Source of the DNA: Octopus vulgaris
Taxonomy: Eukaryota
Direction: 5' to 3'
DNA: 64,000 bases
Assembly (NCBI GenBank): GCA_951406725.2
Contig: OX597815.1
Location: 106,454,001-106,518,000 of the forward strand
A program made the position numbers and the translations under genes. Below are positions 1-26,310 of the stretch, piece after piece; the stretch's first letter is position 1, and each line of letters opens with the position of its first letter. The notes beneath the pieces were generated by a model. It had not been told where the DNA came from. It did no database searches and was given only the letters and a program-made list of their open reading frames with translations.

Positions 1-1221
1 AGATGTTTACTGTCAACAACTAGTGAAACTGGAGAAAGCAATCGAAGAAAAACGGCCAGAATTGGCAAATGGTAAAGGAATCATATTCCACCATGGCAAT
101 GCTAGACTACACATGTCTTTGCCAACTCGTGAAAAATTATTAGAGCTTGGTTGGGAAGTGATGTCACATCCACCATATAGCCCTGACCTGGCACCATCAG
201 ATTATCATTTATTTCGAAGTCTGCAAAATTCTTTGAATGATAATATTTTCAATAATGATGATGACCTGAAATCGCACTTGCTTGAGTTTTTGGCTGATAA
301 GGACCAGAAGTTCTATGAGTGCGGAATCATGAAGTTGCCAGAAAGATGGCAAAAGGTCATCGATCGAAATGGAAAATATATAATTGATTAAAAAGAGTAA
401 AATGTGTATTAAACGAATATGAGAACAATCGATTATAGTGAAATTTGCGCCAACGAACCGATTATAATGAAATTTGGGGGAAATTTTTTTCCCAAGGGTG
501 TGGGAGAGGACGAGACATTTAGGAATTATTTTTTTGAGTCTAACGGAAAAGGGTTTGAAAATATAATTTTTAGATTTATTTTTCGTCTGAGTAATAGATA
601 AAGATTTTAACAAAGATCTCATGTATCATGGTAAGATAAACTGATTCATATGGTAAATCGTTCAGTTTACTTTCGTAAAAAAAAAGAAAGCAAAGGGACA
701 TAAATACAACTGATTTCTAACTTTGCTTATCTACCTATCATTTCTTACTGCTTTGTTTCAAGATATAAACAGGAATTGAAAAAACAAAAAAACTAATATA
801 AAAGTTATTGTCAACAACACGTTCTGATTTGACGAACGATTACGGTGTTGAATATGGTTTCACTTAGGAAAAGGGCAATTTACCTGCTGTTTTTAGCGCA
901 TCTCACGACCATCTGATGCCTTGTTTAATATTTTCGATTAATTACAAGTTCTCTCGGATTCCAATAAGCAAGTTAAGTCTAATGGGAATAGGTAGAGTGG
1001 TATTGAGTGTTTTACAGTATAAAAAATGCAAAAACACCATTAGGGTAAGAAGAGTTGTATTGAATGTTTAAAATCAGTTCATTGGTGCAAATTTTGGTCC
1101 TCGTATTCGTTTGATACACTTTCAACACCCTTTTTCTTGTTTTGTTGACCAGGTGTTAAACATAAACCAAAAAACGACTTGTTTCACACAAAAAAACCGA
1201 AGTTACTTTCTTGCCAACCTA
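1..1221 (+). mobile_element. Mariner (DD34D) transposon 3' part: transposase C-terminus (to 391) and right TIR (~1191-1221), interrupted by a MITE
   Basis: ORF 23-391 has HPPYSPDLAPSDYHLF and LPERWQKVID..GKY mariner motifs. The second catalytic D is mutated (HGN instead of HDN). aaaaaccgaagttactttcttgccaacctac resembles a mariner TIR. Confidence 0.85.
400..1125. mobile_element. Non-autonomous TIR element (MITE) nested in the mariner 3' end
   Basis: aaacgaatatgagaac...aaatttgcgccaacgaaccgatt (~411-463) is the approximate reverse complement of aatcagttcattggtgcaaattttggtcctcgtattcgttt (~1072-1112). No coding capacity. Confidence 0.55.
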
Positions 1222-1426
1222 CAGTTTTCCTGGTCAATTTTTTCCAGATATAATCAATTAAAAGCTATGCAAGCCCAACTATTTATGCTAGTTTCAATTA
1301 AATGTTTTCTTACTTTTTCATCACTATTCTGATTAAAACATTTAGCTCTGGTCTCTCATTGATAACTGGTGAAATACCATTTGATTAATGGTTAACTTGT
1401 ACACAAACACTTTAGTTTTAAATCTT

Positions 1427-1540
1427 CAGTATGTCTGTTAATCTGGATATGAAATTGTTATCCATTTGGTTAAACCTGCAGAGTAGATTGCAACTCAGTG
1501 ACATTTAAGGTTGGTGTGACTTCGTGAAATGCAAACATGA
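1427..1540 (+). ncRNA. Candidate box H/ACA snoRNA
   Basis: Hairpin (ttaatc-tggata/tatcca-ggttaa), H box AGAGTA 1480-1485, second hairpin closed by ttgca/tgcaa, ACA 1535-1537 plus 3 nt. Lies next to other snoRNAs. No target identified. Confidence 0.3.
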
Positions 1541-1552
1541 TTTAAAAGTTGA

Positions 1553-1718
1553 TCTGTAGCAAGATTAAATGAATTAGGATTTCCCATTGCTGTAGAAATA
1601 AATCTAAATACAGCATCAAAAATATCAGGACAGTTGTATGGTAGTATTGCGTGCTTGTAGGCAAAAGATGCTGCCCGATAAAGGTCTTGAATCATTTATC
1701 AAAGATTTAGGTACATAA
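1553..1718 (+). ncRNA. Candidate box H/ACA-like RNA
   Basis: tctgtagcaa/ttgctgtaga hairpin, ANANNA-type hinge (aaataa), 3' domain closed by atctaaat/atttaggt with an internal cagcatc/gatgctg stem, ACA at 1713-1715. Confidence 0.25.
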
Positions 1719-1841
1719 GTAGATTTTATCAGAAATGTTTGATGGATGGGCTTATGTAAATTTTGATCCAAATGAAGCTTCCAGTGTAGGATTTTAATCT
1801 TCTGGTTTATATCAATATTTCATTCTTAGCTAAATTGCATT

Positions 1842-1924
1842 TTGAGGAATGATGAAGATTAACTGGGTTTTCATGAGATGTAACATCGATGAGACCATGC
1901 TCACTAGACAGTAACTGACCTCAA
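1842..1924 (+). ncRNA. Box C/D snoRNA candidate (target not recognised)
   Basis: 6-bp terminal stem ttgagg/cctcaa, C box ATGATGA 1849-1855, D' ATGA 1873-1876, C' TCGATGA 1886-1892, D box CTGA 1915-1918, canonical 1-nt spacer. Confidence 0.7.
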
Positions 1925-2659
1925 TGCTATTAATCGATAATTTTTGTAGAGGTAGACTTCTATTGAGAAAGCTTTTCTAATGTGTAAGTTTTCAGTAGTT
2001 AGATTTAGATCTGTAATGAAGATGCTACTTAAAGTGAATCTGAAATGACACAATTTGAACTCATTTTAGAATATAAATAGAATTAGAATCTATATCTAAA
2101 TGTCTTAACCCTCTGAATAAAGACAGCTTGCGTGTGCTCTGCTTGCTGATAGAGAATCCAACTAGAATTTAAAAAAGGTTTTGTCATACAGTAGGACAGG
2201 AAAAGTGATTTGGATCATGAATGACAGAAAGCCTGTCGAATGATTAAGAAAGCTGGTGTATAGTTTTTTAAACAATACGTTTTGCTTAAGACGGGAAATA
2301 CATTCCTCCTGTATGAACGTTAACAAAGTGCATGTAAAATTATTTTAAAAAAAGTTATGCTATAGTAATATTTAGGTTAAATTCATCTAATGTTCTTTAG
2401 ATGGATTTGTTGAAAGACCCTTTCTTGATTGTCTGATTTATCTTTCACAAAGTATGTTCTTGAGTTTTTCGGTATTTTCTATTTACGATACTATGAATAG
2501 TAATTCATGTTTAAGTGTTGGTTTATGTTCCTTGACATGTGGGTAGTTACAGCTTTCTAGTTTAGTGTCATTGACTCTTCATTATATTTATTGAAATACA
2601 CAAATAATGTACACTTGGCTAGATGTTCAAGATTCATGCTTGTGTTAGTACTGGTTTTT

Positions 2660-2727
2660 CCAACATGATGATTTAATATCACAGACCTGTTCTGAAACTT
2701 CTGTGGAAACTTGATATATCTGATTGG
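2660..2727 (+). ncRNA. SNORD25: Box C/D snoRNA U25-like (guide for the 18S rRNA G equivalent to human Gm1490 / yeast snR56 site)
   Basis: Stem ccaa/ttgg, C box ATGATGA 2665-2671. Antisense ATCACAGACCTGTT 2678-2691 is complementary to conserved 18S AACAGGUCUGUGAU and lies directly before D' CTGA 2692-2695. D box CTGA 2720-2723. Confidence 0.85.
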
Positions 2728-3183
2728 TGTAAAGTTGAGCTTTAATACTTGAAATTTTATATGAAAGACTTGTACAAGTTACTGTGAACAGCACTACATA
2801 TCTTGTATTTGTTACTTCAGATATCTGACTGATTTTGTGTACATTTATTTTTCTCTAGGCTATAATGTTGCATTCATAGCATGCTATAGTTATTCTACTA
2901 CTTCAAAAGTGTATATATGTGAGCATAATGAAGTGAATTTGATGTATGTGGTTTCTACTTCGTTTCTCAACTGACCAGATTCTCTCATAAGAGCCAGGGT
3001 TAACATAATTATTGTCCATTTTTGTGAGAGCATGAATTATAAAGTGATCACGACTGTAGACACAAAAACGAAGTTGCTGTTAGATATTTCTCATTATGAT
3101 GCTCTTATTGTTGGTCACTTCATATTTCATTATGATAGTCCAGTAATTTTCATTGTAACTATATCTGTTGCTGTTTTCATGCT

Positions 3184-3280
3184 GAGAACAATGATGATGT
3201 ATTGAACATATTTGTTCGCGGTTTCCACCAGAGATGTATTCTGTGATGGTCACCTTCCTTTCTTGGATGTCTGAGTTCTC
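3184..3280 (+). ncRNA. SNORD14: U14 box C/D snoRNA, copy 1
   Basis: Stem gagaac/gttctc, C box ATGATGA 3191-3197, domain A TTCGCGGTTTCCACCAGA, domain B CCTTTCTTGGATGT directly before D box CTGA 3271-3274. Matches vertebrate U14 UUCGCAGUUUCCACCAGA and CCUUCCUUGGAUGUCUGA. Confidence 0.92.
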
Positions 3281-3830
3281 TTCTGCAGCAGTCTGATGTT
3301 ATGCTCATTTGACCATTTGCTTTTAACTGGTACAGTCTGCTGTAAACAATTTTAAATGCACTTGCTTAATTCTGGCATGAGAAGCTTTTTAACGCTTAAG
3401 GTTTTCATATTCACTATTACCGTCTCATTCATTAAGAAGTATCAAAATGGTTTTACAGCTGAATTACTTCTATACTAAGAACCTATTTAGTATGTCAAAA
3501 TTCAGTGATTTCATTTTAGCATGGTTTAGATAAATCTAAACTTCAAATCCTCTTTTGGTGTCTGTTTTACATGCTGGCATGGGTTAAACTGCTCAACATA
3601 TATGAGCAGGTCCAGGAAGAACTTTGGGTTCCATCGTGTTTTGGCTTCATTTCTGTAGCTGGATGCCCGTCTTATTGCCAACTCCACTGTACTAAGTGCT
3701 TTCACTGTAACACCAGTACTTCTTCATGGCTGACACACATACATGTGTAGAACGTTTACGCAAATTATTAAGGATATTATGTCGTAAGCTAATTTGTCAT
3801 TCTGACCATAATTCAGCTTTTGATGTTCCA

Positions 3831-3928
3831 GAGAACAATGATGATGTATTGAACATAATTTGTTCGCGGTTTCCACCAGAGATGTATTCTATGAAGGTCA
3901 CCTTCCTTTCTTGGATGTCTGAGTTCTC
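3831..3928 (+). ncRNA. SNORD14: U14 snoRNA, copy 2
   Basis: Same boxes, stem and domains A/B; 1-nt insertion upstream of domain A. Confidence 0.9.
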
Positions 3929-4457
3929 TCCTGCAGCAGTCTGATGTTATGCTCATTTGACCATTCGCTTTTAACTGGTACAGTTTGCTGTAAACAATTT
4001 TTAATACATTAGCTTAATTCTGGCATGACAAGCTTTTTAAAACTTAGTTTTCATATCCACTATCGTCTCCTTCATTAAGAAGTATCAAAATTGTTTTTAC
4101 AGCTGAATTACATCCTATGAATCTACTTTAAAAGAGGACACTTAATGTCAAAATTCAATGATTTCATTTCAACATATCAACTTTGTGTCCGTTTTACATG
4201 CTGGCATGGGTTAAATGCCTAAACATAAATGAGCTGGGCCAGGAAGCACTTTACGTTCCATCTTCTGTTTTGGCTTGGTTTCTATAGCTGGATGCCCTTA
4301 TGCCAACTCCTGTACTAGGTGCTTTCAATGTAACACCAGTACTTCTTCATGGCTCACACCCAATCATGTGTAGAACGTTTACACAATTATTAAGGATATT
4401 GTATGATAAGCTAATTTTTTGTCATTCTGACCTCTTAACCTAGCATTTGATGTTCCA

Positions 4458-4554
4458 GAGAACAATGATGATGTATTGAACATATTTGTTCGCGGTTTCC
4501 ACCAGAGATGTATTCTATGAAGGTCACCTTCCTTTCTTGGATGTCTGAGTTCTC
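4458..4554 (+). ncRNA. SNORD14: U14 snoRNA, copy 3
   Basis: Intact C/D boxes, terminal stem, domains A and B. Confidence 0.9.
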
Positions 4555-5388
4555 TTCTGCAGCAGTCTGATGTTATGCTCATTTGACTATTCATTCCCTT
4601 TTAACTGGTAGTTTGATTGCTGTAAGCAATGTTAAAACTTTCGTTAATATATTTCTAACAAAAATACACCCCTTAGGAGTTTCAATTAAACTTCTAACAT
4701 AATCATGAATTTAGTCTGGTTTCATAAAACATTTTCATTTATCAATATATTGCCATTTTTGGAAGATAATTTTACGAAACATTCTCAACCAATTCCATAC
4801 CATAATTTTTGTCACAAAGTGGCTCTAATTACAGAAGATACAGGTACATTCAACAAGATATAAAGTCATTAAAATTTTTGTTCAAACACTGCTATAGGAA
4901 ATGGATTATTAGCTAATATTCAATTGGGTATACAACAAAATTTTACTATAGAAGAGTTGTGTACATTACTGGATTCATCAGGTGAATTTAAGCACAAAGG
5001 TCGGGTGTACCATGAAGGTATAAGTAAAATGAAAGACCGGAATTTGAAGAAAACTAGAAAACAAAATACCATCAACTAGATTATATAAGCTCTCTCACAT
5101 AGATACACAGATACAATAAGGTATAGAAGAATTTAATCAAAATTTGTCATTCACCTTAGAGGTAAATTAAAATTACATGAAAGATAAAAACGAAGTAAAT
5201 TTGAAAATATAAAATGTAACATTTGATGCCCGTCTCAATGCCAACTCCTGCACTATGTGCTTTCAATGTTACACCAGTACTTCATGGCTCGCACCCATAC
5301 ATGTGTAGAACATTTACAGTTATTAAGGATATTATATCATAAGCTAATTTTTTGTCATTCTGACCGTAATCCAGCTTTTGATGTTCCA

Positions 5389-5485
5389 GAGAACAATGAT
5401 GATGTATTGAACATATTTGTTCGCGGTTTCCACCAGAGATGTATTCTATGAAGGTCACCTTCCTTTCTTGGATGTCTGAGTTCTC
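5389..5485 (+). ncRNA. SNORD14: U14 snoRNA, copy 4
   Basis: Intact C/D boxes, terminal stem, domains A and B. Confidence 0.9.
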
Positions 5486-5999
5486 TCCTGCAACAGTCTG
5501 ATGTTATGCTCATTTGACCATTCACTTTTAACTGGGACAGTTTGTTGTAAACAATTTTTAATACGTTAGCTTAATTCTGGCATGACGAGCTTTTTAAAAC
5601 TTAGTTTTCATATCCATTATCGCCTCATTCATTAAGAAGTATCAAAATTGTTTTTGCAGCTGAATTACATCCTATGAATCTACTTTAAAAGAGGACACTT
5701 AATGTCAAAATTCAAGGATTCCATTTTAACATATCAACTTTTTGTGTCTGTTTTACATGCTGGCATGGGTTAAATGAGCAGGGCCAGGGAGCACTTTACG
5801 TTCCATCTTCTGTTTTGGCTTGGTTTCTATAGCTGGATGCTCTTGTGCCAACTCCTGTACTAGGTGCTTTCAATGTAACATCAGTACTTCATGGCTCACA
5901 CCCATACATATGTAGAACGTTAACACAATTATTAAGGATATTGTATGATAAGCTAATTTTTTGTCATTCTGACCTCTTAACCTAGCATTTGATGTTCTA

Positions 6000-6100
6000 G
6001 AGAACAATGATGATGTATTGAACATATTTGTTCGCGGTTTCCACCAGAGATGTATTCTATGAAGGTCACCTTCCTTTCTTCTCTTCAGCAGTCTGATGTT
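6000..6100 (+). pseudogene. SNORD14: U14 snoRNA copy 5 with a 13-nt deletion removing the end of domain B and box D
   Basis: Reads ccttcctttctt|ctcttcagcagtctga, lacking ggatgtctgagtt. C box and domain A are intact. Confidence 0.85.
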
Positions 6101-6899
6101 ATGCTCATTTGACTATTCATTCCCTTTTAACTGGTACAGTTTGATTGCTGTAAACAATGTTAAACCTTTCGTTAATATATTTCTAACAAAAATACACCCC
6201 TTAGGTGTTTCAATTAATTTGTAACATAATCATGAATTTAGTCTGGTTTCATAAAACATATTTTTATTTATCAAAATATTGTGATTTTTGGAAGATAATT
6301 TTACGAAACATTCTCAATCAATTCCATACCATAATTTTTGTCACAACGTAGCTCTAATTACAGAAGATACAGGTACATTCAACAAGATATAAAGTCATTA
6401 AAATTTGTTCAAACACTGCTATGGAAAATGGGTTATTAGCTAATATTCAATTGGGTATACAACAAAATTTTACTATAGAAGAGTTGTGTACATTACTGGA
6501 TTCATCAGGTGAATTTAAGCACAAAGGACAGGTGTACCATGAAGGTATAAGTAAAATGAAAGACCGGAATTTGAAGAAAACTAGAAAACAAAATACCATC
6601 AACTAGATAATATAAGCACTCACACATACACAGATACAATAATGTATAGATACATAGAATAATGATTTACAAAAGAAATTAATCAAAATTTGTCGCTCAT
6701 CGTAGAGGTAAATTAAAATTACATGAAAGATAAAAACAAAGTAAATTTGAAAATATAAAATAAAACATTTGATGCCCGTCTTAATGCCAACTCCTGCACT
6801 AGGTGCTTTCAATGTAACACCCATACATGTGTAGAACATTTACACAATTATTAAGGATATATCATAAGCTCTGACCTTAATCCAGCTTTTGATGTTCCA

Positions 6900-6996
6900 G
6901 AGAACAATGATGATGTATTGAACATATTTGTTCGCGGTTTCCACCAGAGATGTATTCTATGAAGGTCACCTTCCTTTCTTGGATGTCTGAGTTCTC
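6900..6996 (+). ncRNA. SNORD14: U14 snoRNA, copy 6
   Basis: Intact C/D boxes, terminal stem, domains A and B. Confidence 0.9.
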
Positions 6997-7528
6997 TCCT
7001 GCAGCAGTCTGATGTTATGCTCATTTGACCATTCGCTTTTAACTGGTACAGTTTGCTGTAAACAATTTTAAATACATTAGCTTAATTCTGGTATGACGAG
7101 CTTTTTAGAACTTAGTTTTCATATCCACTATCGTCTCCTTCATTAAGAAATATCAAAATTGTTTTTACAGCTGAATTACATCCTATGAACCTACTTTAAA
7201 AGAGGACACTTAATGTCAAAATTCAATGATTTCATTTCAACATATCAACTTTTTGTGTCCGTTTTACATGCTGGTATGGCTTAAATGCCTAAACATAAAT
7301 GAGCAGGGCCAGGGAGCACTTTACGTTCCATCTTCTGTTTTGGCTTGGTTTCTATAGCTGGATGCCCTTATGCCAACTCCTGTACTAGGTGCTTTCAATG
7401 TAACACCAGTACTTCTTCATGGCTCACACCCAATCATGTGTAGAACGTTTACACAATTATTAAGGATATTGTATGATAAGCTAATTTTTTTGTCATTCTG
7501 ACCTCTTAACCTAGCATTTGATGTTCCA

Positions 7529-7625
7529 GAGAACAATGATGATGTATTGAACATATTTGTTCGCGGTTTCCACCAGAGATGTATTCTATGAAGGTCACCT
7601 TCCTTTCTTGGATGTCTGAGTTCTC
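7529..7625 (+). ncRNA. SNORD14: U14 snoRNA, copy 7
   Basis: Intact C/D boxes, terminal stem, domains A and B. The array breaks off right after it. Confidence 0.9.
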
Positions 7626-8085
7626 TTTGGTGCAGTTCTTGGTCTTCAGTTTGCTGTACTGAATAATTTACAAATTAGGTCCATTTATAGGACAATTTCA
7701 CTCTCCCTGTGTTGGCTATAGTTTATAAATCAGTAGTCTTGATTAGATACAATAAATCTTTTGGAACTTCTCATTGTGGTTAATATTGTGATCTGCTTAT
7801 GGCAATTTTTCCTCAAAGAGGATGGATATCTATATAAATAGGTAGCAGCCATGCTTCCACCAATACATGTATACATGCACACACAACTGAAATGGAAGTT
7901 CCAATGAATCTACTTCCCCCCCCCTGTGTTTCCATGTGCCTTAGTGTGGTTATTTTGAAACGCCAATAGAGACCTTGCCAGTTAGCTGACATAAAGCAAT
8001 AAAAAAATTGCAATACAATTAGTGGCAAAATCACATTCCATTTGAAAAAATGAGTGGGATGATATTTCACTGTTGTAATGTTGGT

Positions 8086-8141
8086 GGATGATGTATTGAA
8101 CTTAATTGTTCGGTTTCCACCAGAGATACACTATGAAGGTT
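8086..8141 (+). pseudogene. SNORD14: Degenerate U14 remnant
   Basis: ggatgatgtattgaacttaattgttcggtttccaccagagatacactatgaaggt: mutated C box, 2-nt deletion in domain A, no domain B or box D. Confidence 0.75.
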
Positions 8142-8580
8142 AATTTAACTTTAAATAGTACAGACTGTCTGTATATGACACCTATGTATGTATGTGTGTG
8201 TGTGTGTATATATAAATATATACACCACCACACACACACACACATACTCATCCATGAATATGTAAAATTTTTTATTACTATAGCCGTATCACAGCTTGTA
8301 CATAGTGGTTGCATCTGGTTGTGAACTCCAGTGTGACAGCTGCACTTCAAATATTCGTGTGTAAACCAGTTCAACTGTGCTGAAAGATCTATAGTTCTTT
8401 CGAGTCCTACTTTGATTCTTTATACATCACAAAATTTGCTATCAATGCTGGTGTTTGCTTCCCAAGCAATTGGGTTTTGCCTCACTACATGGAACCTTGG
8501 ATAATTATCTTCTGCATCTTTCTGCTGACAAAGGCCTTGAGTAGATTTGGAAGACTGACAGAAGCCTGTTTTTGTATATT

Positions 8581-8830
8581 CAGAGTGGGCCATGATGATG
8601 GGGACAGTTCAACACATCGAAGATTTTGCAATTTTTTTTTTTATAGGTAGTTGGTATTGTCGTATGCTTATATTATCAAAGCATACATTACTAGCCAAGG
8701 ATCTATTGCAGCCCTGAGAAAATTCCGACAGCACTTTAAAAAGCAACAGAAAAGCTCATGGATGTTCTCTGGTGGTGGTGTCCATCTCCAAGATGTGATT
8801 TTCAAATCTTAGATACGTTGACCTATGTGT
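8581..8830 (+). mobile_element. Internally deleted Tc1/mariner-superfamily element
   Basis: cagagtgggcca TIR-like start. N-terminal fragment IKAYITSQGSIAALRKFRQHF is joined to C-terminal GGGVHLQDVIFKS*. Confidence 0.55.
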
Positions 8831-8939
8831 CAGTTAGGTAATATATTTGGTGCTCAGTCATTTTTAAAATCCTATATACTAGCATTTATGAACTAGTGGC
8901 TTACAATTCCATTTGATTAAATTAATGCTTAAGTAATGT

Positions 8940-10290
8940 GACAAATGACAGTGATGGTAAGATCTAAAGTTGATGGATGATGTCAAGATTTGAATGGAGA
9001 GTTAATTGCATTTTTGAAGGTCAAAGAGTTGGATGATAACGATCTAGACGTAAGTGCTTCAGAAACAATGCCAAATTACTCAATGGACAAAATATTTCCA
9101 TTTATAGGATGAGAGCATTCAAATACCTCTGCAACCTATTTACTGCTCAACAAAAAGCTAAAATGATAAAACCAAAACGCAGAATAAACAAATTAAATAC
9201 AACTGCTTGAGAAGTTGTATTTACTGTGTTTACTGTTACGAATGGGATTGTCTAAAAGTGGGGCTATGACAGACATCCACAAAAGGGAAGACACTCTAGA
9301 AACAGGTTTCAACTTGTAAACTGTTTTAGTTAAGATGCTGAACAGGCAAAGATGACACCAGCTAAGATTCATCCATTGATTGATGCTTTGAAGAATTACA
9401 GGGAGATCTTTCCAGAAGAAATAATTGGCAAGTCTTTGGTATCATTGGAGGGGTTGCTTAATTAGACAATATATCACTAATTAAAGCCATTAATATGGAA
9501 TATAGCTACTCATGTTTTGTGTTCTAAGTGGATATACTTTCATGTGATGAGTGGCCAGAAAAAGTCCAGCGAAAAATGAGAAAGATTAGTGTACAACGTG
9601 AACTTAGCAAAGCATTCAAATGAAGGAAGAACACTGCACAATGTTTACGAGTTAGAAAAAAAAAATGCTGTTAGTCAGAAATAAAATTTGCAAACACCTT
9701 TGTAAAGTACATTGCAGAAGGGAGAGATGATTGCATTTGAAGATGACAATGGAATAGCCGTCTTGAAATAGAAAGATAAAGAGATGTAAGAATGCTATCA
9801 ACTAAGCATAGAATAAAACTACTGGAAATACAAAAATACATGAGACATAGGTATGCTTGGTCCTTAACCTCAAAGAAAAATATATATCAGGAAGTGTCAT
9901 GAAGTCCGGGATAGTATTTTACAATAAAAAGGCAAAGTAGGAATAGCTCTGTTACAACTCTAGTTGAAGTTACCAAATGATGCTGAAAGCTTGGAAGAGA
10001 GTTGTTTGGATTATCAATTCATATATTGTTTACAAAACCAACTGGTAGAAATATTACAAGAAAATTAAGAAAATGTATAGATAGATCCCTGATAAAAATG
10101 TACAAAAATGCATAGGCTGGGCCAAGTAAATCCTCAAAGTTCTTGTGTGCAAGCCTTGCTATGCAAGAATTCTGATAATGAAAAAAAAGAAGTACTATTG
10201 TAGTGGTCATGAAGGTAGCCTGTTTCAGGAAAATTCATGACTAATCTAATATAAATGTGGAAAACTAATTTGTGTTATTGTATCACACTC
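8940..10290 (+). mobile_element. Decayed piggyBac (PGBD4-like) transposase
   Basis: Frameshifted fragments RNRFQ, KIHPLID, RQYI, YGI, GIAVLK*KDK.DVRMLSTKH, YN. Confidence 0.7.
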
Positions 10291-10569
10291 TGACCCCTGC
10301 TCTTTATTCATTGACCCTGTTTACTATTCATGTTGGGGTGAGAGTAATTGTAGGCATAGAAACAGTAGTAGATTGATGGTTGTGATAAAGTGGAGGACTT
10401 AGAAGCAAACTGAAAAAGATGCGTGTTGAATTGGATTTTAAGGAAAAAATTATTTTGTCCAACCCCTGTAAGTTTATTTGTAATAACTTGTAAGTACTCA
10501 TTTTGTTGTGGGGCAGGGTTCTTAATGTTTCGGTGCCATAAAGGATGACTGGGCTCCATGGTTGTAGAT

Positions 10570-11166
10570 CTTCAGAGATAAGAGACATCAGATGAGTGTG
10601 CTGGTATGGTCATTCGATGCATATGGATGTGGACAGCTATGGAGGAAACATGTGGTAGTGGTAGACCCACAAGACATGGGACAAAGTGGTGAAGTATGCC
10701 TCACAGAAGCAATGACTAGTGACAGACTATTGGCAATATGCAAGCCAATTCGAATTGTTATGGCTGATGTTGGAGTTGTGTAACTGGCACCCATGCTGGT
10801 GGCATGTAAAAAGCACTGTTGGAGCATTGGGCCTCCTAGAAGCGAAGTGGCTGAAGACTTTTTGAGTGTTTGGCCTCGCAGAGGCAAAGTGGCCGAGTTC
10901 CTTTCCAGCGTTGGGTCTTGCAGAGGCAATGACTGAGACCTTTGGCATTATATTGTGATCAAGAAGATGACTATCTAGCCAGGCGATATTGCAGTCATGG
11001 CAGATACTGATGTCATGCAAATGGCATCTGTGCTGCTGGTACGTAAAAAGACCCATTACATTTTGGAGTGGTTGGTGTTTGGAAGGGCATCCATCTGGTG
11101 CAGCTTACCAACTATTGTCAAACTCCAACCTATTCCAGCATGGACAAGGGATGTTAAATGATGATT
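10570..11166 (+). mobile_element. RTE-clade LINE 3' fragment
   Basis: Decayed WYGH...GRP..TW..VVK end, 3' UTR homologous to 34620-35236, ending ccagcatgga...gttaaatgatgat. Confidence 0.7.
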
Positions 11167-11242
11167 GTGGATCCTCAGTACTATTTAGTTGGATTGCCTT
11201 GAATCCAAATATATCACCTGATCTGAGACTTTGTTGTGTAAG

Positions 11243-11330
11243 GCAGTGCTACTCAAAATAGTGGTCTGTGGACCAGTGCCAGTCTATGAGCTATTAGCTG
11301 CCAGTGTGCGGTGAGTTTCCGGAAAAGAAA
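11243..11330. mobile_element. hAT/Charlie-like MITE end
   Basis: cagtgctactcaaaatagtggtctgtggacc resembles MER5/Charlie-type termini. Confidence 0.4.
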
Positions 11331-11401
11331 GAAACAATATTTTTATTTTGCATTTATTTTATAAACAAATACAAAGTTAACTTTTATTATATTCATTATA
11401 T

Positions 11402-12535
11402 ACAGGGGTTAAACAAAATAATGGAAACACCTTAAAATTTCAAGCTAATTTATTTTAATCTGGGTAGGACCACCTTTGGCAGTAATTACAGCTTGAATTC
11501 TATGAGGTTTGGACTTGTACAAAGTTTGAATTGTTTCCAAAAGAATTTTTATCCATTCTTCAGCTAAAACAGTCTCCATTTCTTGTAGTAATATTGAGAT
11601 CTGGGGACTGTGGCGACTAGATAAGATGTTCAACATAACTAGGATGTTCCTTGTACCATTCAGTAACAACTATAGCTGTGTGAATTGGTGCATTATTATC
11701 CTGAAAAATTGCATTTCCCTCCAGAAACAGTCCCACAACCATAGGATGAATTTGGTCAGATAAAATGCTTAAATAGTCTTGACTATTAATTCTGCCATGA
11801 AGGGAAACCATTGGGCTAGCGGATTTCCATGATGTAGCACAAAGTCAAATGCTTCTTTTGGCTGTCTCCACATGTATACTTGGCCAGTGGATGGAAATAC
11901 AGTAAAGGATGACTTGTCAGAGAAAATAACATTCTTCCACTGCTCTTGGGACCAATTCTATAGGTTTTTACTCCACTGTAAACATGTTGCAACATTTGTT
12001 TTTGAAAGTAGTGGTTTTCTCTGATTGCAGCCCTCCCATGAAAACTGGCTTTGTGCAGCACCCAGTGAACAGTTTTTGTGGAAGTTGGGTTCTTGAGATG
12101 GTCATTAAGCTCTGCAGTAATTTTGGGAGCTGTACTTTTTGTATCACCAGCATTGTGCGGATGGCCTTAGCATCAGATTTAAAATTCATCAAAGACTAGG
12201 GTCACATACCACACGTCCCCTACAAAATTCAGCCTCAACAAAAATTCTTTTCAGCAGGCCGTGCTATTTAACATTGTCAAAATGAAGAAAAAGACTCCAT
12301 CACCTTCAAAACAAACCTAGCAACTTTCAAGGGACACCAGATAAGCCACCTATACTAGGATGTATCTCAGTCAACTATAGCTGAGTCCTTTCTAACAATT
12401 TGTGCAAGAGTCCGTTGGTCCCTATCTGAAAGTTTTGGTTTTCTTCCAGAGTTTTGTTTCGATGAGGAGGTTTTTCCCTCTTTCTCAAAGCTGTCATTTC
12501 TTTTGAGACAGTACTTCTTGATACACCAAACATTT
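11402..12535 (-). mobile_element. Decayed Tc1 transposon, interrupted by a LINE 3' fragment (~12185-12385)
   Basis: Fragments MFGVSRSTVS..KTSSSKQNSGRKPKLSDRDQRTL, VIQKVQLPKL, FQDNNAPIHTA, IQAVITAKGGPT. TIR caggggttaaacaaaataatggaaacacc follows TA. Confidence 0.85.
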
Positions 12536-12729
12536 ATACTACTAGAGCTGCTTTTAATTCGTAGTTTAATTTTATTTCCTGTATGTAGCTTAAGTATGTT
12601 TCAACCAGATTGGCCCAGGTAACTTAATAGCATTGTTTTGTGGTATCGGCCTATTCAAGTAGGGAGCTATGGTTGACTGAGATACATCCTAGTATAGGTG
12701 GCTTATCTGGTGTCCCTTGAAAGTCGCTA
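12318..12729. repeat. 65-bp inverted repeat (12318-12382 / 12665-12729) derived from a CR1/Jockey-like LINE 3' end
   Basis: Arms are reverse complements with 2 mismatches. Upstream residues resemble the LFN...FK..L..F...PD.P...G LINE C-terminus. Confidence 0.8.
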
Positions 12730-13124
12730 AGTAATGCTTGCATTACTATAATGAACGCTGGGAGATTATTATTAAGCTTTAATATTTAATGCACCAGGCA
12801 AATGGACGCAAGATAACTAGATGCTTTTCATTTGTCACTGGTAATACTTCGAGTCGAGACTTACCAATTTCCGCGCCAAAGTATGACGTATGAAGAGTTG
12901 TCCCCCTTCTGTAATTTTTGTTTAAACGTTCGTTAAAGGTACGAGGGAGTTTGTACATAGGACAAGGTGAAATACTTCTCTGTTCACAGACTGGATTCAT
13001 GTTATCTTTTTTTTAATAGAGAATGATGAATGAAGTTAGCGTTCATGAAAATAATCTTTTCTATATTTTAATTTCATAATTTCGTTTCCTCTTCCTCTGG
13101 AAGGTTGTCAGTGGCTGCTACCTA

Positions 13125-13580
13125 TAGGGTGGCCCTAAAGTAGGTTTACAGTTATTCAACTATCTCTTTCGCATTCATATATTAAGATCATAATTATAAA
13201 ACAGTATGAGATCATTCATTATTCTATGCTAATTTAGTTAATTTTTTCAAGCTCCCTTTTTAGTTTGTAATTGTATTATAAAGGTATTATAAAGTGTAAG
13301 CCATAGCAAACAATTTAAATCAAGAGCAAAGAAAGTGGATATTAAAGCAATATTGGAAGTCTCAAAATGCTGAGCAGGTGTACACAACATGGCCAGAAGC
13401 CTTTCACACATCAAAATCTGCACACCCTAAAACTTTGACTGAAAAAAAAAATGAGATGTTAGTGGCTATGACATTTGTGAACAGTCCAAAGAAGCCTACA
13501 CAACGTACTTCTCTAGAACTATCCATACCGAAAACATCATTGCAATGCCTAATGCATAAGCTGAAAATCATGGGGGAATA
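13125..13580 (+). mobile_element. Tc1/mariner-superfamily 5' remnant
   Basis: TIR-like agggtggccctaaagtaggtttacagt. HTH fragment VNSPKKPTQRTSLELSIPKTSLQCLMHKLK. Confidence 0.6.
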
Positions 13581-13779
13581 GATGATAGGCACATCTGGCC
13601 ACACCAGGAGAATAAGGAGGGTGATTAACCAGTTCAAAGCCATATTTAAGCATAGCAGCCACTGAAACCAAGCACTTGGATGTTAGAGTATTGTTTTACT
13701 GAAACACGACCTATTTTGTCAGTTTTCTTGAGCGTTTGGTCTTGATGGCTCTTCATAACTGCCTCAGAAGGTTGGCATA

Positions 13780-14615
13780 TTACTCTCCATTGCTCCCTTT
13801 TGAAGATGGTCAATAAGCACAATGCCTTTTGTACCCACAAAAGCAGGCTGTCATCTTGCCTACAGATGAAGTGACGTTGGCCTTTTTTGGAGCAGGTGAG
13901 GAAAGGTGTTTCTGCTCCATGTCTCTGTCTTTGGCTCAAAGCGATGAATGTAACACACATTTTGTGTTAAGAAACATTCAAGGAAACCTGCTGGTTCTGC
14001 TTCAAGCAGTGTCACATTTTCCTCATGATGTGATCAGTCTGATGTACTTTTGATCAGGTGTCAGATGATGTGGTGCACACTGAGCAGAAATCATTATGTT
14101 AAGTCCATTGCACAGAATATACACAAGTATCTAATGGGATATGCTAATATCATTTGCAATTTGATTTATAATCAGTCGTCTTTCATCCATCACTGAACAT
14201 GGTCAATGTTTTTCTTGGCGGTGGCAATTGCAGGACGTCAGGACCTTGGGTCATCTTCAAGACTACCTTTCTGTCTTAAATTCAGCTGCCCTCTTTTGCA
14301 CTGTTAATAATAAAACTGGAGTGTCATCCCAGAATGTAGCAACCATGTCAGTGAATGTCGTCGGGAGCAAAACCTTTTCCCTGCATGTACTTGATAACAC
14401 CACGATTCTATATTCTGTCCATTTTCAAGAGGAGTTGCCTCTAGTTACTTTTGAAGTCTTTGAACAGTCATATACCAATTTACTTACAAAGAAACAATGC
14501 AAAATAAACAAAATAAAACAAAAAAGAAAACTAATTTGAAGATTTGAAATGAATACATGCAAGTTTTTGCAGCATCACTCCTTCATAGCCAATGAACTTT
14601 TCAGGCTACCCTTGC
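13780..14615 (-). mobile_element. Decayed mariner 5' half
   Basis: Minus-strand fragments GSLEDDPR, SAQCAPHHLTPDQK (WVPHxL-like). TIR-like caagggtagcctgaaaagttc. Confidence 0.6.
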
Positions 14616-15756
14616 ATGTTCATTTGGAAAGATATAAAACCGTTAGTAGTGTTGTAAAACCAAAACGTTGTGACACTAGTGACAACTGAACTCAGTTTTA
14701 CAAACAATATATGGCCACGAGTTGCACTTATAAATGTATTGGTTTGTTCCTCCAGTTCAATATTCTCAATCTAAAATGGGTAGCAGGCTACATTCCCTCT
14801 TGAATTTCATAGTCTAGCCACATGAAGCACCTCTGCTATTTACTGTGACTAATTTGTTCATAGAACTCGAAATTTATAACAGTGTAGCTAAAACTAAAAC
14901 AGCTTACAAGTATGTATGTTTAAATTCAAATTAAGACAAAAAATTCAGAAATAATTTGAATTAACTAGGGAAAAATTAAAAAATGTTAGAATAAACAGAA
15001 TAAGATCTTTAAGCGATATGACATAAATGAATCAGAATTCTCTTGTTATGAAGTAAAATTTTCATGTCTGATTGAAGAAATGGAAGGTGGGAAAAAGCAT
15101 GGCTTGGACATTCTCCTAGATATCCTCTTCATTTGCCGTCTGGTTTTGGCTGACAAATTACGGAAGTAAAACCAAAATATTTTTTGTCCAGAAAACAACA
15201 CTAAGAGTTATTTCCCTTGTTTACTAGATTTACTAGAGTTATTTCCCATATGTTGTTTTCATTTAAACGTTTAGCTGTATGCGCGGCAATGCCATGCATC
15301 ACATTTTTCTTTATAATTCATAGTTATTTTGTGTGATTTTCGTTGGAAATTGATATAGGACAAATTTCAAGATTTCAAAGTTGTTTACTGCTATATTATT
15401 CACTATTAATTGGTGTGAAGATTATGAATCAGTACGCACGTTTTATGTCTTACACCTTGACACTCGTGAACGAGGACATAATCACTCAGTCTACTAGAAG
15501 TGAAAGTCCAGTTTTCTGTAAACTATAGCTTAAAAACAAAACATAGACGGTATACGAAATTACACTGGATAAGAAAATAATATTCAATTCTAAATTACAT
15601 TCCTCTATGTAACATTGTATTTATATTATCATTGATTAAACGTAACTCATTAAAACCGAAATAGACCAATTTAAATGCTAAAATTTCCTCGGTTTTCTGA
15701 GATAAAATTATTCCAGAATCAATGGTGCTGGTTGTGTCTAATATCGAAACCCAACT

Positions 15757-15962
15757 ATCCTTTTCTACTCAAGGCACAAGACCCAACATTTTGGGGGAGG
15801 GGGCCAGTCGATTAGATCAACCACAGTACGCAATTGGTACTTAATTTATCAACCTCGAAAGGATGAAAGGTAAAATCGATCTCGACAGAATTTGAACTCA
15901 GAACGTAAAGACAGACGAAATAACACTAAGCATTTCGCCTGGCATGCTAACGTTTCTGTCAG
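15757..15962 (-). mobile_element. tRNA-derived SINE with Deu/Nin-like core. Further copies ~19050-19240(+), 27750-27965(-), 28030-28247(-), 28760-28935(-), 54715-54907(-), 55738-55951(+), 57935-58130(+), 58668-58870(+), 60930-61140(-), 63690-64000(+, two partial)
   Basis: Shared gagttcaaattc (B-box-like) ...gactttgcctttcatcctttcggggtcgataaattaagtaccag core in >10 dispersed copies. Confidence 0.85.
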
Positions 15963-17496
15963 TTTACTATCCAAAAATATATTGTCACTGTTGTAGTTTA
16001 GTAAAATACAATATAATTGTAACTTTTGATATGAGAATTAAAATAAGGATAGTAAAGAAGTAGTAATCATGAGCAATTAGATGCAATGTTCTGTTATAAA
16101 GACAAAGGTATCACTGAAATACTGGTCCTTAGAATTAGATTCTGTTATATTTCTGGCATTAACGTTTGTAATATTTACATCTGTGGAGTTTTCTGTAGCT
16201 GTAGAATGAAACTAGAGCTGTTGTTTTTCTTTTTAATAACGGAATATGAAGAAACCATTTTAAAATTGAAAATTTAAATGTCTCAAGGTGGTGTGTCCAT
16301 TAATCCATCTAAAATTGATTTTTCTTTGAATTTCCTGTTTTAATTTCCTTTCCGTCACTCCTTTTATTTCTTTTCCATTAGCCAACTGGAACATTATCTA
16401 TAATTGTCAAATTTGCTATTGTAGACATGGAAGCAAGGAGAATATCGTGGGTGTTAGACATTATCCGTTGATCAGCTTAAAACCACCATGACATGGCACT
16501 TGGGTGCTTTTAGCTGATCCACTTTGTTGAAAGTGTCCGATCTGAACATAACTTCCTCTCTTCTCACACATCATGGAATCGTCCTTAAAAGGTCATAGTC
16601 ACTGCCTTCCAACTTTGATCAAGTTTTTCAAGATTTGCAAGCTATTCACTCAAACGTTGTTCACAGTGTATTATTTTATGTTTCTGAATTAAATGTAATG
16701 GTGTTTCACTGCTGCACAATGCATGTAATTACTTACAGATCATTGTTTAAATAGGTTCAAAGAAGTGAATTTAGTTTACATTTGGTTTTTTACTTTTTAA
16801 TTATTGTTGCCTGTTTCATTCATTGAACTGCAAACCTACACAGGTCGTCAAGCAGTTAGAGACAATGCATGCATGCACACACACACCTTCTTTATTTCTC
16901 TCTCTCTCTCTCTCATACACATACATGATGGACTTGGAGGTAAGCTTTGTTTTAGAGAGAGCCAAACAGAGAGCCACAGGTAGCTCTCAGATTGTCATGG
17001 GGCTTCTAGGCCCCAGATCAATGTACGAGTTGAACTTGCCTCTCATAGGTTCTGGTCTAATGATTAGATGATTAAACCCCATTAGTCTGAGGAACAGATC
17101 ATTGTGACTCATTAGTTATCTGTTCACCTGATGTAAAGATAACTGTGTCAAATCAACTACTGTCAATAAATCACTGTGTAAAATATTAGCTTGATAAATA
17201 CATTTTTATGTAACAGTATTATGGTGAGCAGAATATTTTTCTAGTAGTGAGAATCTTTAAGGTAAGATGGGCAACAGAAGTTCTTCAGAGAACTCCGTCT
17301 CCATGCTTCGGTTTTTAACTTCTTACACTCTAACTGGACTAGGCTACCCTGGATACCCATCTGCTGTTGCTGTTTGTGCCATTAGTCGGATTCTGAATCA
17401 ACAGTATGTTATGGGAACTGTGGTTTAACTTCTGGCCTTAGTTTTCCAATGTCTTATCTGCTTGTGCAATATGCTAATCAAATGGAATCAAACAAA

Positions 17497-18385
17497 CATC
17501 ATCATCATTATCATTGTTTAACATCCGCTTTCCATGCTAGCATGGGTTGGATGATTTGACTGAGGACTGGTGAACTGGATGGCTGCACCAGGCTCCAATC
17601 TTGATCTGGCAGAGTTTCTACAGCTGGATGCCCTTCCTAATGCCAACCACTCCGAGAGTGTAGTGGGTGCTTTTACGTGCCACCAGCATGAGGGCCAGTC
17701 AGGCAGTACTGGCAATGGCCAAGATCAAATAGTATTTTTTTACGTGTCACCAGTACAGGAGCAGCTCTAGTAATATAAATGTTATTGGTTGTATAAATGT
17801 TTGGTGTATCAAGAAGTACTGTCCAATGGCACTGGCAATGACCTCACTTGAATGTTTTTTTCACGTGCCACCAGCACAAGTGCCAGTAAGGCAACGCTGG
17901 TAACGATCATGCTCAAATGGTGCTTTTTATGTGCCACTGGCATGGAAGCCAGTTAGCCGCTCTAGCAACGATCTTAGCGCTCCACTAGCACGGGTGCCAG
18001 TCATCGAATTTGATTTCGATTTCACTTGCCTCAACAGGTCTTCGCAAGTAGAGTTTAGTGTCCAATGAAGGAAAGGTATGCATAAGTGGGCTGGTTACAC
18101 TCTTGGCATAAGCCACGAGGTTATTTGGCTTGCCGGGCCTTCTCAAGCACAGCATATTTTCAAAAGTTTCGGTCATTAGTCATTGCCTCGGTGAGGCTTA
18201 ATGTTTGAAGGTCGTGCTTCACTACTTCATCCCAGGTCTTCCTGGGTCTACCAACCGCTAGGGTGTGGCACTGTTTCACTCAGCTATCCTCATCCATTCT
18301 CGCCACATGGCCATACTAGCACAGTCGTCTCTCTTGCATACTACATCTGATGCTTCTTAGGTCCAACTTTTCTCTCAAGGTACCT
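17497..18385 (-). mobile_element. RTE-clade LINE 3' fragment with (GAT)n tail
   Basis: Reverse strand reads RRLC*YGH...RPRKTWDEVVKHDL. 3' UTR homologous to 34620-35236. Confidence 0.85.
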
Positions 18386-19849
18386 GATAGAATAAGGAAG
18401 TTGTGGTTTCTGTAATCTTTATATCATTCCATCCATTCTGTTTAACCCTAAACTGAAGATTGAAAAAACAATGTAAATATTTACCTGTAAAAAGTATTAT
18501 ATAGCAACAGTCACTGCGTCTTCTTTACTACATGGCTGTTTATCCATTCACAAAGAAAGACAGAGAGCAAGGTATGTAAAATCACATAGTTTTGAGTAAA
18601 AAAAGTGAGAAACGGAAAAAAAAAGTGCCCGAGCAAATTTTGTGACAAGTGAGTATAAGCTATTTATTGTGCTAGAAATATCTGCAAAGCACCAAAATAG
18701 ATATTCTAATGATCACAAGGCATTAGTATTACATGAATCAGTACTGGAGTCAAAGAAAATTGTCATTATCTATTTTTTGAATCCTTTACAAAGTTCTTGA
18801 GAGCAGAAACTTCTTGTTGCTGAATTTTAAGATCTGAATCTGTCGACACAATCAGTATCAAGATTTTATGATTATAATGATTATTTCTGACTTATGCACA
18901 TAGGAAAACATTCTGTGGGAGTCAGTTGAATTGGTTGCAATACTTAACTGTTACATTATGTTATGAACCATTTGAAGGATGAAAGCAAAAATAAACTGCT
19001 AGGATTGAAATCAGAGCACAAAGGACATCATTCATCGTTGTGAATGCTGGACGACAAAATTGGTAGAACATCAGACATTGATTTGTGGTATTTAATTATG
19101 CCCTTTGGCATTCTGAATCCAAATCTCCATGGTCAACTTTGTCTTCTGTCCTTCTCAATTGATAAGTACCAGTTATGAAATGAAAGTTGATTTTTGCAGT
19201 TACCCCCACCCATCAGCATTTAAAGCCTTGTACTTATTTAGACATATTATATGGACGTATTTTGTTATACCTTGTTCAAAAAACAGCAGTTGTACAAATT
19301 ATCTTCATAGTTCTATAAATAATAGCATGTAAACATTGGGTTAAAAAAACCTATTGGGTAGAAAAAGATGAAGACTCAGTGGGAGTTGAGGCCACAATTT
19401 CTGAATCATGAGAAATGCTTCTAGATTCGTAAGATGTAAACAATAACATTTTCGAGGCTAAGGACAAAACTTCAAAGATGGATGATGGGATTCAAAGAAT
19501 TGCTTTAGTACAACTGTAGGGTGTCATTAGGTCTCTCTATCACTCTCTTTGTCTCTCTCTCTCCCTCTATCTTATCTATCTGCATACATAAGAATCAGGC
19601 CGTATACTTGTTGAAAAATTATATTTTAACAAAATCAAAGTGATTATGGAAAATTCCCAGGAACTAATATAAACAAAAACAATTTTTTCTTTAAATACAT
19701 ATATTTATTATTCTTTTCTGATGTGTATATTTAATAAAGCCACAATGAAATATTTTATATAAATAGAAGTCTATGCATAAACATTTCCTCCAATTATTAT
19801 CAAATAAATAAGTATACTTACGCAAGCCTCAAAAACATAAATATTATAG

Positions 19850-19982
19850 AAATATATATATATTCATGTATATATATATGTATGTGTATATATATATATA
19901 TATATGTGTGTATATATATGTGTATATATGTATATGTGTATATATATATATGTGTGTATATATGTATATATATATATATATG

Positions 19983-20013
<31 letters not shown>

Positions 20014-20060
20014 ATGTGTGTGTGTGTGTATATATATGTGTACATATATGTGTGTGTGTG

Positions 20061-20105
<45 letters not shown>

Positions 20106-20155
20106 GTATGTATATGTATGCATGTATATATATGTATGTATATATAAATATAATG

Positions 20156-20192
<37 letters not shown>

Positions 20193-20504
20193 GTACATAT
20201 ATACATGTATATATATATATCTATATATGTATGTACATGTACACATATATATGTGTATATATATATGTATGCATATATATATGTTTATATGTCTACATAT
20301 ATGTAAAAATATATATATAAGTATATATGTATATATGCATGTATATGTGTATATATATATATGTATATACATGTATATATATTTATATATGTTTATATGT
20401 ATCTTTGTCCTTATGTATGTATATATATATATATATATATGCATATATGTATATATGTGTATGTGTGTATACATATATATATGTATATATCTATATATAT
20501 ATGG

Positions 20505-20562
<58 letters not shown>

Positions 20563-20646
20563 ATATTTATAATGTATATATAGATGTGTATATATATATA
20601 TACATATATATACATATATATACGTATATATATATATATGTTTATA

Positions 20647-20682
<36 letters not shown>

Positions 20683-21130
20683 TATAAACATATATATACG
20701 TATATGTACATATATATACGTAAATGTGTGTATATATATATATTTATATGGATATGTATATATATGTATGTACATATATATATATATTTTATGTCTATAT
20801 GTATATGTATGTATGTATACATATCAATAATCACACTCATGCACACATATATATGTGGGTGTGTACATGTACGTGAAAACATCATCTATGCATATATACT
20901 TATGTGCTCATACATACTTTCATATATGTATAAATATGCATATATAATACATATGTAAAAATGTGCGTGTGCATATATATATATGTATATACACACATGT
21001 ATATGTATGCATGTATATAAAGACACACATGTATATATGTATGTATATACACACACATGTGTATATATCTCTATATATATACATCTCTGTAGACACATAT
21101 TCAAATATGATGATTTGTGTATATTTATGT
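19850..21130. repeat. Compound (TA)n/(TG)n microsatellite tract
   Basis: Directly visible. Confidence 0.97.

Positions 21131-22549: not shown

Positions 22550-26310
<3,761 letters not shown>

What the first reader, a model, noticed from the sequence alone, without database searches (positions are those of the whole stretch)
3184..8141. Tandem amplified array of U14 snoRNA genes hidden in an apparent satellite
Seen: a 97-nt block is nearly invariant in six repeat units while spacers accumulate many indels and substitutions. It has a terminal stem, C and D boxes and both U14 antisense domains. Known: U14 domain A is needed for 18S processing and domain B guides the Cm at human 18S 462 / yeast 414. 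Vertebrate U14s lie in introns of HSPA8 and RPS13. Here no protein-coding exons are visible between copies. Inference: recent local amplification under purifying selection or concerted evolution, in a non-coding host or polycistronic transcript.
Basis: partly seen in the sequence, partly recalled or inferred. Interest (0 to 1): 0.75.

Follow-up and report, generated by a model that had tools for sequence, protein, structure and literature searches.

The report
Six-copy U14 snoRNA gene cluster
Six near-identical copies of the gene for U14, a small RNA predicted to help cut and methylate ribosomal RNA, stand in a row beside two other guide-RNA genes in what is likely a non-coding host gene, a real but familiar kind of arrangement.

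Summary
Confirmed. 3184-7625 holds six intact 97-98-nt U14 (SNORD14) genes and one copy lacking domain B and box D; a truncated relic lies at 8087. SNORD14 is the best Rfam snoRNA match (E 2.5e-8, but 50 bits, under the 64-bit cut-off). Both antisense domains pair with this genome's own 18S, with a G:C change on both sides in domain A. The block is far more conserved than the spacers (2 of 97 against 86 of 495 variable sites, p 8e-6). The array starts and ends at U14 itself, as unequal crossover between U14 copies would leave it. No coding exon or splice joint was found, so the host structure is inferred. One oddity: three dispersed fragments begin 0-5 nt behind a U14 3' end. Multi-copy U14 and snoRNA-to-snoRNA duplication in non-coding hosts are published; this scan noted an 11-copy U14 array in another genome. 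New member of a known kind.

The parts
1842..1924 (+). Box C/D snoRNA gene (box C 1849, box D 1915-1918, 6-bp stem); its D guide pairs over 10 nt with 28S and predicts a 2'-O-methyl U, probably the site of yeast Um2347/snR65
   Evidence: 12 of 1000 shuffled guides score as well; no Rfam family near cut-off; the equivalence to yeast U2347 rests on recalled sequence context
2398..2443 (+). Possible decayed 3' half of a further U14 copy
   Evidence: weak: nhmmer E 3.1; local score 39 reached by 0 of 1000 shuffles (best 38) and 0 of 53 control segments (best 37)
2660..2728 (+). U25/snR56-like box C/D snoRNA gene; D' guide pairs over 15 nt (one G-U) with 18S, target G2235 of this 18S
   Evidence: Rfam snR56 34.9 bits E 0.0074 and snoU25 E 0.029, both under cut-off; 0 of 1000 shuffles score as well; single copy in the genome
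2839..2858 (+). Candidate 3' splice site 135 nt behind the U25 box D
   Evidence: sequence only; one contig of run X2 starts at 2858, a weak hint
3184..3280 (+). U14 copy 1, intact; two substitutions in the C'-like box; unique 5' flank
3281..3830 (+). Spacer A', 10-12% diverged from the A spacers; holds a decayed dispersed repeat (SINE-like) at about 3547-3720
3831..3928 (+). U14 copy 2, intact, one inserted A
3929..4457 (+). Spacer A
4458..4554 (+). U14 copy 3, intact; domain A about 4484-4502, domain B 4531-4544, box D 4545-4548
4555..5388 (+). Spacer B: first about 76 nt and last about 170 nt shared with A, the middle replaced by sequence that includes a high-copy AT-rich repeat
   Evidence: summed contig depth in the thousands at 4640-5111 in runs X16 and X19
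5389..5485 (+). U14 copy 4, intact
5486..5999 (+). Spacer A
6000..6080 (+). U14 copy 5, broken: 16 nt missing with the end of domain B, box D and the 3' stem arm
   Evidence: Rfam 21.5 bits; no terminal stem in the fold
6081..6899 (+). Spacer B, 4.4% diverged from the first B spacer
6900..6996 (+). U14 copy 6, intact
6997..7528 (+). Spacer A
7529..7625 (+). U14 copy 7, intact; its 3' flank departs from all others within a few bases of the stem
7630..7730 (+). Unique 3' trailer of copy 7, copied to two other contigs from position 7630 on
8087..8142 (+). U14 relic: box C damaged, 2 nt missing in domain A, no domain B or box D

Best explanation
This is a cluster of six intact U14 box C/D snoRNA genes, with two other C/D snoRNA genes upstream, that is likely transcribed as one non-coding host RNA from whose introns each snoRNA would be trimmed out. 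Shown: the boxes, stem and both antisense domains; their pairing with this genome's 18S; stronger conservation than the spacers; no coding exon. Inferred from the family: domain A pairs near the 5' end of 18S for pre-rRNA cleavage, domain B guides 2'-O-methylation of C663 of this 18S (yeast Cm414). Inferred from the anatomy: two older U14 copies with different flanks mispaired, unequal crossover repeated the unit [U14 + spacer], a repeat insertion made spacer B, and the 1.55-kb A+B pair was then duplicated; a host without a reading frame tolerates this. Inferred and untested: the host start (a TOP-like site 7.2 kb upstream of the window) and one intron per copy. Separate odds: U14 identity about 0.97, origin by unequal crossover about 0.8, the whole statement with one snoRNA per intron 0.5.
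For: SNORD14 match over the full model in 6 of 6 intact copies. Domain B pairs over 14 nt (one G-U) at 18S 659-672 and puts the fifth base from box D on C663; 2 of 1000 shuffles do as well. Domain A forms 18 pairs with one bulge at 18S 80-98; it has G where the Rfam consensus has A, and 4 of 4 own 18S copies examined have the matching C; a fly U14 primer shows the same G (PMC4430873 supplement rows). Block against spacer p 8.2e-6. The 5' flank of copy 1 and the 3' flank of copy 7 are unique right up to the stem; dimers differ at 60 of 1480 sites. The same geometry is published for cow U17HG (PMC1687206 passage). 0 of 146 short + strand frames reach a Pfam cut-off, and among 147 longer frames only a Rab exon, a reverse transcriptase and a mariner transposase, all upstream of the window, hit. 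A pyrimidine-rich AG with branch-like motifs lies 61-63 nt behind box D in 5 of 6 intact copies and 77 nt behind the 1849 snoRNA. TOP-like start with ETS motif and a GTGAGT donor 35 nt later, single-copy, in CpG-rich DNA; the cluster lies in CpG-poor DNA. Fly U14:30Ea is hosted by non-coding Uhg2.
Against: Score is under the Rfam cut-off (50 against 64 bits). Domain A duplex energy alone is not significant: 28 of 300 shuffles pair as well somewhere in 18S. No GT-AG joint among the 9 joints listed for 1100-8170 or among the 15 of 64 shown for 400-14000; contigs run through the candidate splice sites. No strong donor motif was found in the three A spacers. The C13 and C17 dispersed copies read through candidate acceptors. 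The TOP-like site lies 9 kb from the first snoRNA with nothing linking them but position.
Confidence: 0.5

Rival explanations
1. The same functional U14 genes lie together in one long intron or unspliced polycistronic RNA and are separated by a cut close behind each snoRNP, then trimmed.
For: No splice joint seen in 8 runs laid; no strong donor in the A spacers; three dispersed fragments begin 0-5 nt behind a U14 3' end and the C13 one runs 180 nt on without a splice; an unchecked note of this scan reports several snoRNAs per intron elsewhere in this genome (e1-8672560); a reference title says plant U14 genes are polycistronic (seen).
Against: Acceptor-like sites at a steady 61-63 nt behind box D in 5 of 6 intact copies; none of the runs is on record as RNA, so unspliced contigs may be DNA or pre-mRNA; a stalled reverse transcriptase explains the fragment starts without a nuclease.
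Confidence: 0.32
2. One or two copies do the work; the others are a neutral copy-number expansion kept alike by gene conversion and not processed.
For: Broken copies are tolerated (copy 5, 8087 relic); spacers are mosaic between units and between samples, which shows exchange; unit number may differ in organism D (one contig skips 1546 nt).
Against: Identity drops sharply at both edges of the block (0 of 49, 3 of 50, then 4-19 variable columns per 50), which conversion alone would not align with the stem; both CpG sites of domain A survive in 6 of 6 intact copies in CpG-poor DNA.
Confidence: 0.13
3. The array is an assembly artefact.
For: Four blocks are identical; no contig spans the whole array.
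Against: Spacers differ by 2-12% with many indels; unit-specific A', A, B and copy-7 flanks are covered by contigs of other samples under four organism labels.
Confidence: 0.03

Closest known systems
U14 / SNORD14 (Rfam RF00016; yeast snR128)
   Same: Box C/D, terminal stem, domain A and domain B against the same two 18S sites; predicted Cm at the site of yeast Cm414 (U14 listed as guide in PMC5199042 table passage).
   Different: 50 bits, under the cut-off; short middle part without the yeast Y-domain (alignment); G in domain A matched by C in the own 18S; a G-U pair in domain B.
Drosophila Uhg2 non-coding snoRNA host
   Same: Non-coding host carrying U14 (U14:30Ea) with other C/D guides (PMC4430873 supplement rows). 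That Uhg2 also holds U25 and a second U14 is recalled, not seen in any call.
   Different: Six intact U14 copies over 4.4 kb with repeat-filled spacers; fly Uhg2 spans about 1.2 kb. Orthology was not tested.
Mammalian hsc70/HSPA8 U14 copies
   Same: Several U14 copies in one transcription unit (three copies, PMC7277114 passage).
   Different: That host codes for a protein and its copies sit in unrelated introns; here the spacers are themselves duplicated and no coding exon was found.
Cow U17HG intragenic duplication
   Same: A 930-bp duplication running from one snoRNA copy to the next in a non-coding host adds a snoRNA copy and an exon (PMC1687206 passage).
   Different: H/ACA family, one duplication; here several rounds with a higher-order dimer.
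snoRNA retroposons, types 1-3 (PMC1687206)
   Same: Dispersed copies carrying host sequence downstream of the snoRNA; truncated versions are ascribed to arrest of reverse transcriptase (passage).
   Different: The published types start at the mature 5' end; three of the five dispersed pieces here lack the snoRNA and start at its 3' end.

Membership tests
U14/SNORD14 | Box C and box D closed by a terminal stem | tested here: met
   6 of 6 intact copies, stem 6-7 bp
U14/SNORD14 | Rfam RF00016 score at or above the gathering cut-off | tested here: not met
   48.9-50 bits against 64; best snoRNA family, full-length, E 2.5e-8. A score threshold, not a biological feature
U14/SNORD14 | Domain B complementary to 18S next to box D, fifth base on the conserved C | tested here: met
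   14 nt with one G-U on own 18S, target C663; 2 of 1000 shuffles
U14/SNORD14 | Domain A complementary to the 5' region of 18S | tested here: met
   18 pairs, one bulge, 18S 80-98, change on both sides against the Rfam consensus; energy alone not significant, 28 of 300 shuffles
U14/SNORD14 | Mature nucleolar RNA needed for 18S processing and methylation | not testable with these tools
   only contigs of runs not on record as RNA were available
Non-coding snoRNA host gene (Uhg/SNHG type) | Several snoRNA genes on one strand | tested here: met
   three families, eight intact genes, all on +
Non-coding snoRNA host gene (Uhg/SNHG type) | No conserved reading frame | tested here: met
   no Pfam hit at cut-off in frames of 27 aa or more across the cluster; shorter or orphan exons are not excluded
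Non-coding snoRNA host gene (Uhg/SNHG type) | One snoRNA per spliced intron | tested here: inconclusive
   acceptor-like sites present, strong donors missing in A spacers; no splice joint in contigs
Non-coding snoRNA host gene (Uhg/SNHG type) | 5' TOP start | tested here: inconclusive
   motif 7.2 kb upstream of the window; link to the cluster not shown
U25/snR56 | D' guide against the conserved 18S G (yeast Gm1428) | tested here: met
   15 nt on own 18S, 0 of 1000 shuffles; aligns with both Rfam guides; scores under cut-off

The most novel reading that the evidence does not exclude
The whole cluster sits in one intron or unspliced transcript and its snoRNAs are freed by a cut right behind each snoRNP; the three dispersed fragments that start 0-5 nt behind a U14 3' end are fossil copies of the released trailers, a genomic footprint of polycistronic snoRNA processing in an animal.
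Probability: 0.2. Interest if true: 0.62.

Novelty: new member of a known kind. Interest (0 to 1): 0.33.

Why it matters
It appears to be the genome's only U14 locus (lower bounds), it falls under the Rfam cut-off and so would be missed by routine annotation, and it gives a clean case of an essential snoRNA amplified by crossover between its own copies. If U14 and U25 share a host here as recalled for fly Uhg2, the pairing may be old among protostomes. The fragments that start at the U14 3' end offer a way to read snoRNP boundaries or processing cuts from genome sequence alone.

Tried and rejected
Rfam at gathering score: 0 hits in the window. Expression: no RNA holder listed; the 8 runs laid are contigs and show cover but no splice joint, which is no evidence either way on expression. 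A coding host: no Pfam hit at cut-off across the cluster; one sub-threshold DUF4817 hit at 8651-8809. A splice at 1079-1146 suggested by a loose end in run X9: a contig of run X16 also stops at 1147, so read as a DNA indel. Further snoRNAs: none at E 1 or better in 8300-19500, only the decayed U14 in the 40 kb upstream, none in my C/D scan from 7.3 kb upstream to 20000 beyond those listed (one candidate inside the mariner at 237 had no good guide). miRNA-family hits are microsatellite noise. Folding is not a signal for C/D RNAs: z -0.89 for copy 3, -2.46 for copy 1. Spliced retrocopies of the host: none in the four dispersed loci fetched. Three papers asked for by id were not held, so the fly Uhg2 content and the plant U14 clusters are not read at source. 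Searches for U14 with octopus, U14 with Uhg2 and U14, U25, 30E found 0 papers; snoRNA with cephalopod and host gene found 3 unrelated ones; the library lacks most subscription journals.
Full report
Setting. The window is G000:C2:106454001-106518000 of a 2.8-Gb genome with an 18S gene of about 2640 nt. An octopus is inferred from these and from an unchecked note of this scan; I did not test the taxon.

Observation. Seven blocks begin at 3184, 3831, 4458, 5389, 6000, 6900 and 7529. Six are intact: copies 3, 4, 6 and 7 are identical, copy 1 has two substitutions, copy 2 one extra base. Copy 5 lacks 16 nt with box D; a truncated relic lies at 8087-8142 and a decayed copy 19.3 kb upstream on the other strand. 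Among the four alignable units 2 of 97 block columns vary against 86 of 495 spacer columns, p 8.2e-6; 5 of 6 pairwise tests give p 0.0007-0.014 and the closest pair p 0.18.

Identity. Rfam gives nothing at the gathering score. By E-value SNORD14 matches all six intact copies end to end at 48.9-50 bits against a cut-off of 64, E 2.5e-8 to 5.2e-8. The test that matters is the organism's own rRNA. Domain B pairs over 14 nt with one G-U at 18S 659-672, placing the fifth base from box D on C663; 2 of 1000 shuffled guides do as well. Yeast Cm414 is made by U14 (PMC5199042, table passage). Domain A forms 18 pairs with one bulge at 18S 80-98. It carries G where the Rfam consensus has A, and all four 18S copies examined carry the matching C; a fly U14 primer has the same G (PMC4430873, supplement rows). 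Against this, the energy of the domain A duplex is not unusual by itself: 28 of 300 shuffles pair as well somewhere in this GC-rich 18S; its weight comes from hitting the known site. U14 is needed for 18S maturation and also guides methylation (PMC7277114, passages). A genome search with the Rfam model found only these six copies (106 of 42584 candidates scored) and a DNA search nine matches, all here or 19 kb upstream, so this seems to be the only U14 locus.

At 2660-2728 lies a U25/snR56-like gene whose D' guide pairs over 15 nt with 18S (0 of 1000 shuffles), single-copy. At 1842-1924 lies a C/D gene with a 6-bp stem and a 10-nt guide for a U in 28S (12 of 1000 shuffles); the site looks like that of yeast Um2347/snR65 (listed), an equivalence I draw from recalled sequence context. 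A possible ninth U14 remnant at 2398-2443 is weak.

How the array arose. The order is U14-A'-U14-A-U14-B-U14-A-(broken U14)-B-U14-A-U14-unique-relic. A' differs from A by 10-12%, A from A by 2-5%, B from B by 4.4%, and the two A+B dimers at 60 of 1480 sites. The 5' flank of copy 1 and the 3' flank of copy 7 are unique right up to the stem: the outer limits of the repeat are the snoRNA itself, as unequal crossover between two older U14 copies would leave them. The same geometry is described for a 930-bp duplication in cow U17HG (PMC1687206, passages). Spacers carry a decayed dispersed repeat and, in B, a high-copy insert, which gives the satellite look. Contigs from other samples cover unit-specific flanks, so the units are not an assembly stutter. 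One contig of run X19 skips 1546 nt between the two B spacers, and one of run X16 joins an intact box D to a flank shortened like that of copy 5: weak hints that unit number and the lesion in copy 5 vary.

The host. No frame of 27 aa or more across the cluster reaches a Pfam cut-off (0 of 146 short frames; of 147 longer frames only three upstream ones hit: a Rab exon, a reverse transcriptase, a mariner transposase; 17 of 164 listed frames were left out of that call and one downstream frame added). CpG is rich from 8 kb upstream to about 1000 and poor from there on; 7.2 kb upstream of the window stand an ETS motif, a pyrimidine-rich TOP-like start and a GTGAGT donor 35 nt later, in single-copy DNA. 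An acceptor-like site lies 61-63 nt behind box D in 5 of 6 intact copies, but no strong donor motif lies in the three A spacers. No run is on record as RNA, and no GT-AG joint appears among the 9 joints or the 15 of 64 shown. One contig starts exactly at the candidate acceptor 2858. So a non-coding host is likely, while one snoRNA per intron (0.5) and a shared intron or polycistron (0.32) remain open. Fly U14:30Ea lies in the non-coding Uhg2; that Uhg2 also holds U25 is recalled only.

An oddity. Five dispersed pieces of the cluster were found. Two contain a whole decayed snoRNA with flanks (19 kb upstream; contig C17). Three lack the snoRNA and start at 4553 (C13, 180 nt, B type), 7630 (C7, 100 nt, followed by a SINE-like head) and 7630 (C11, 37 nt, then an A run), that is within 0-5 nt of a U14 3' end, each behind TA-rich sequence. 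A rough uniform-start figure is 1e-3 to 1e-4 for two independent events and 4e-5 to 1e-6 for three; it is after the fact, two fragments share a start, and only 40 of 77 candidates were scored. The simplest reading is retroposition of 3'-extended precursors with reverse transcriptase stopping at the assembled snoRNP, which would mean germ-line transcription of this strand; arrest of the enzyme is invoked for truncated snoRNA retroposons in PMC1687206 (passage). The bolder reading is a cut behind each snoRNP.

Comparison and verdict. Several U14 copies per host are known from hsc70, and by a reference title from plants; an unchecked note of this scan reports eleven in a sea-urchin gene, whose homologue here lies on another contig. 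Searches found no paper on U14 in octopus, within a library that lacks most subscription journals. The finding is real and correctly read; it is a new member of a known kind. Interest 0.33.

Noticed in passing
L013:2570-2845 (7.4-7.2 kb upstream of the window): Two ETS motifs, a TOP-like start and a GTGAGT donor; a second TOP-like run at 3141 and an E-box at 3348; single-copy. Candidate start of the host.
   Followed up: partly
L012:605-689 (- strand): Decayed U14 of the copy-1 type with short flanks, directly behind a SINE-like tail.
   Followed up: yes
L027:5470-5898 (contig C17, - strand): 76% identical copy of window 1740-2108 with the 28S-guide snoRNA; box C, guide and stem each mutated, so a pseudogene.
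   Followed up: yes
L028, L029, L030 (contigs C13, C7, C11): Dispersed fragments that begin 0-5 nt behind a U14 3' end.
   Followed up: partly
L013: about 5000-8400: Large inverted duplication: two arms of over 1 kb with a SINE-like element in each.
   Followed up: no
L013:9345 to window 391: Mariner transposase across the window start (Pfam HTH_48, Transposase_1); 400-1174 behind it is covered by deeper contigs in runs X5 and X12.
   Followed up: no
window 1079-1146: 68 nt present in this assembly but apparently absent in contigs of runs X9 and X16.
   Followed up: partly
L011:6844-7308 (+): Exon of a Ras/Rab-family gene, E 6e-29, about 23 kb upstream; a reverse transcriptase frame at L011:4084-6090 (-) lies just before it.
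   Followed up: no
L024, rDNA spacer behind 28S on contig C20: Two short pieces of 28S sequence recur in the intergenic spacer about 600-750 nt behind the 28S end.
   Followed up: no
window 22553-26308 and 19837-20824: Very long TA/CA dinucleotide tracts, 3.7 kb and 1 kb.
   Followed up: no
window 26462-27025 (-): 187-aa frame with a membrane-like stretch and a Ser/Thr/Pro-rich tail, no Pfam hit; may be the last exon of a gene on the - strand.
   Followed up: partly
window 37766-41215 (-), 43163-44239 (-), 48073-50696 (+): Two related zinc-knuckle frames without Pfam hit, a MULE/FLYWCH transposase and a decayed non-LTR element (zf-RVT).
   Followed up: partly
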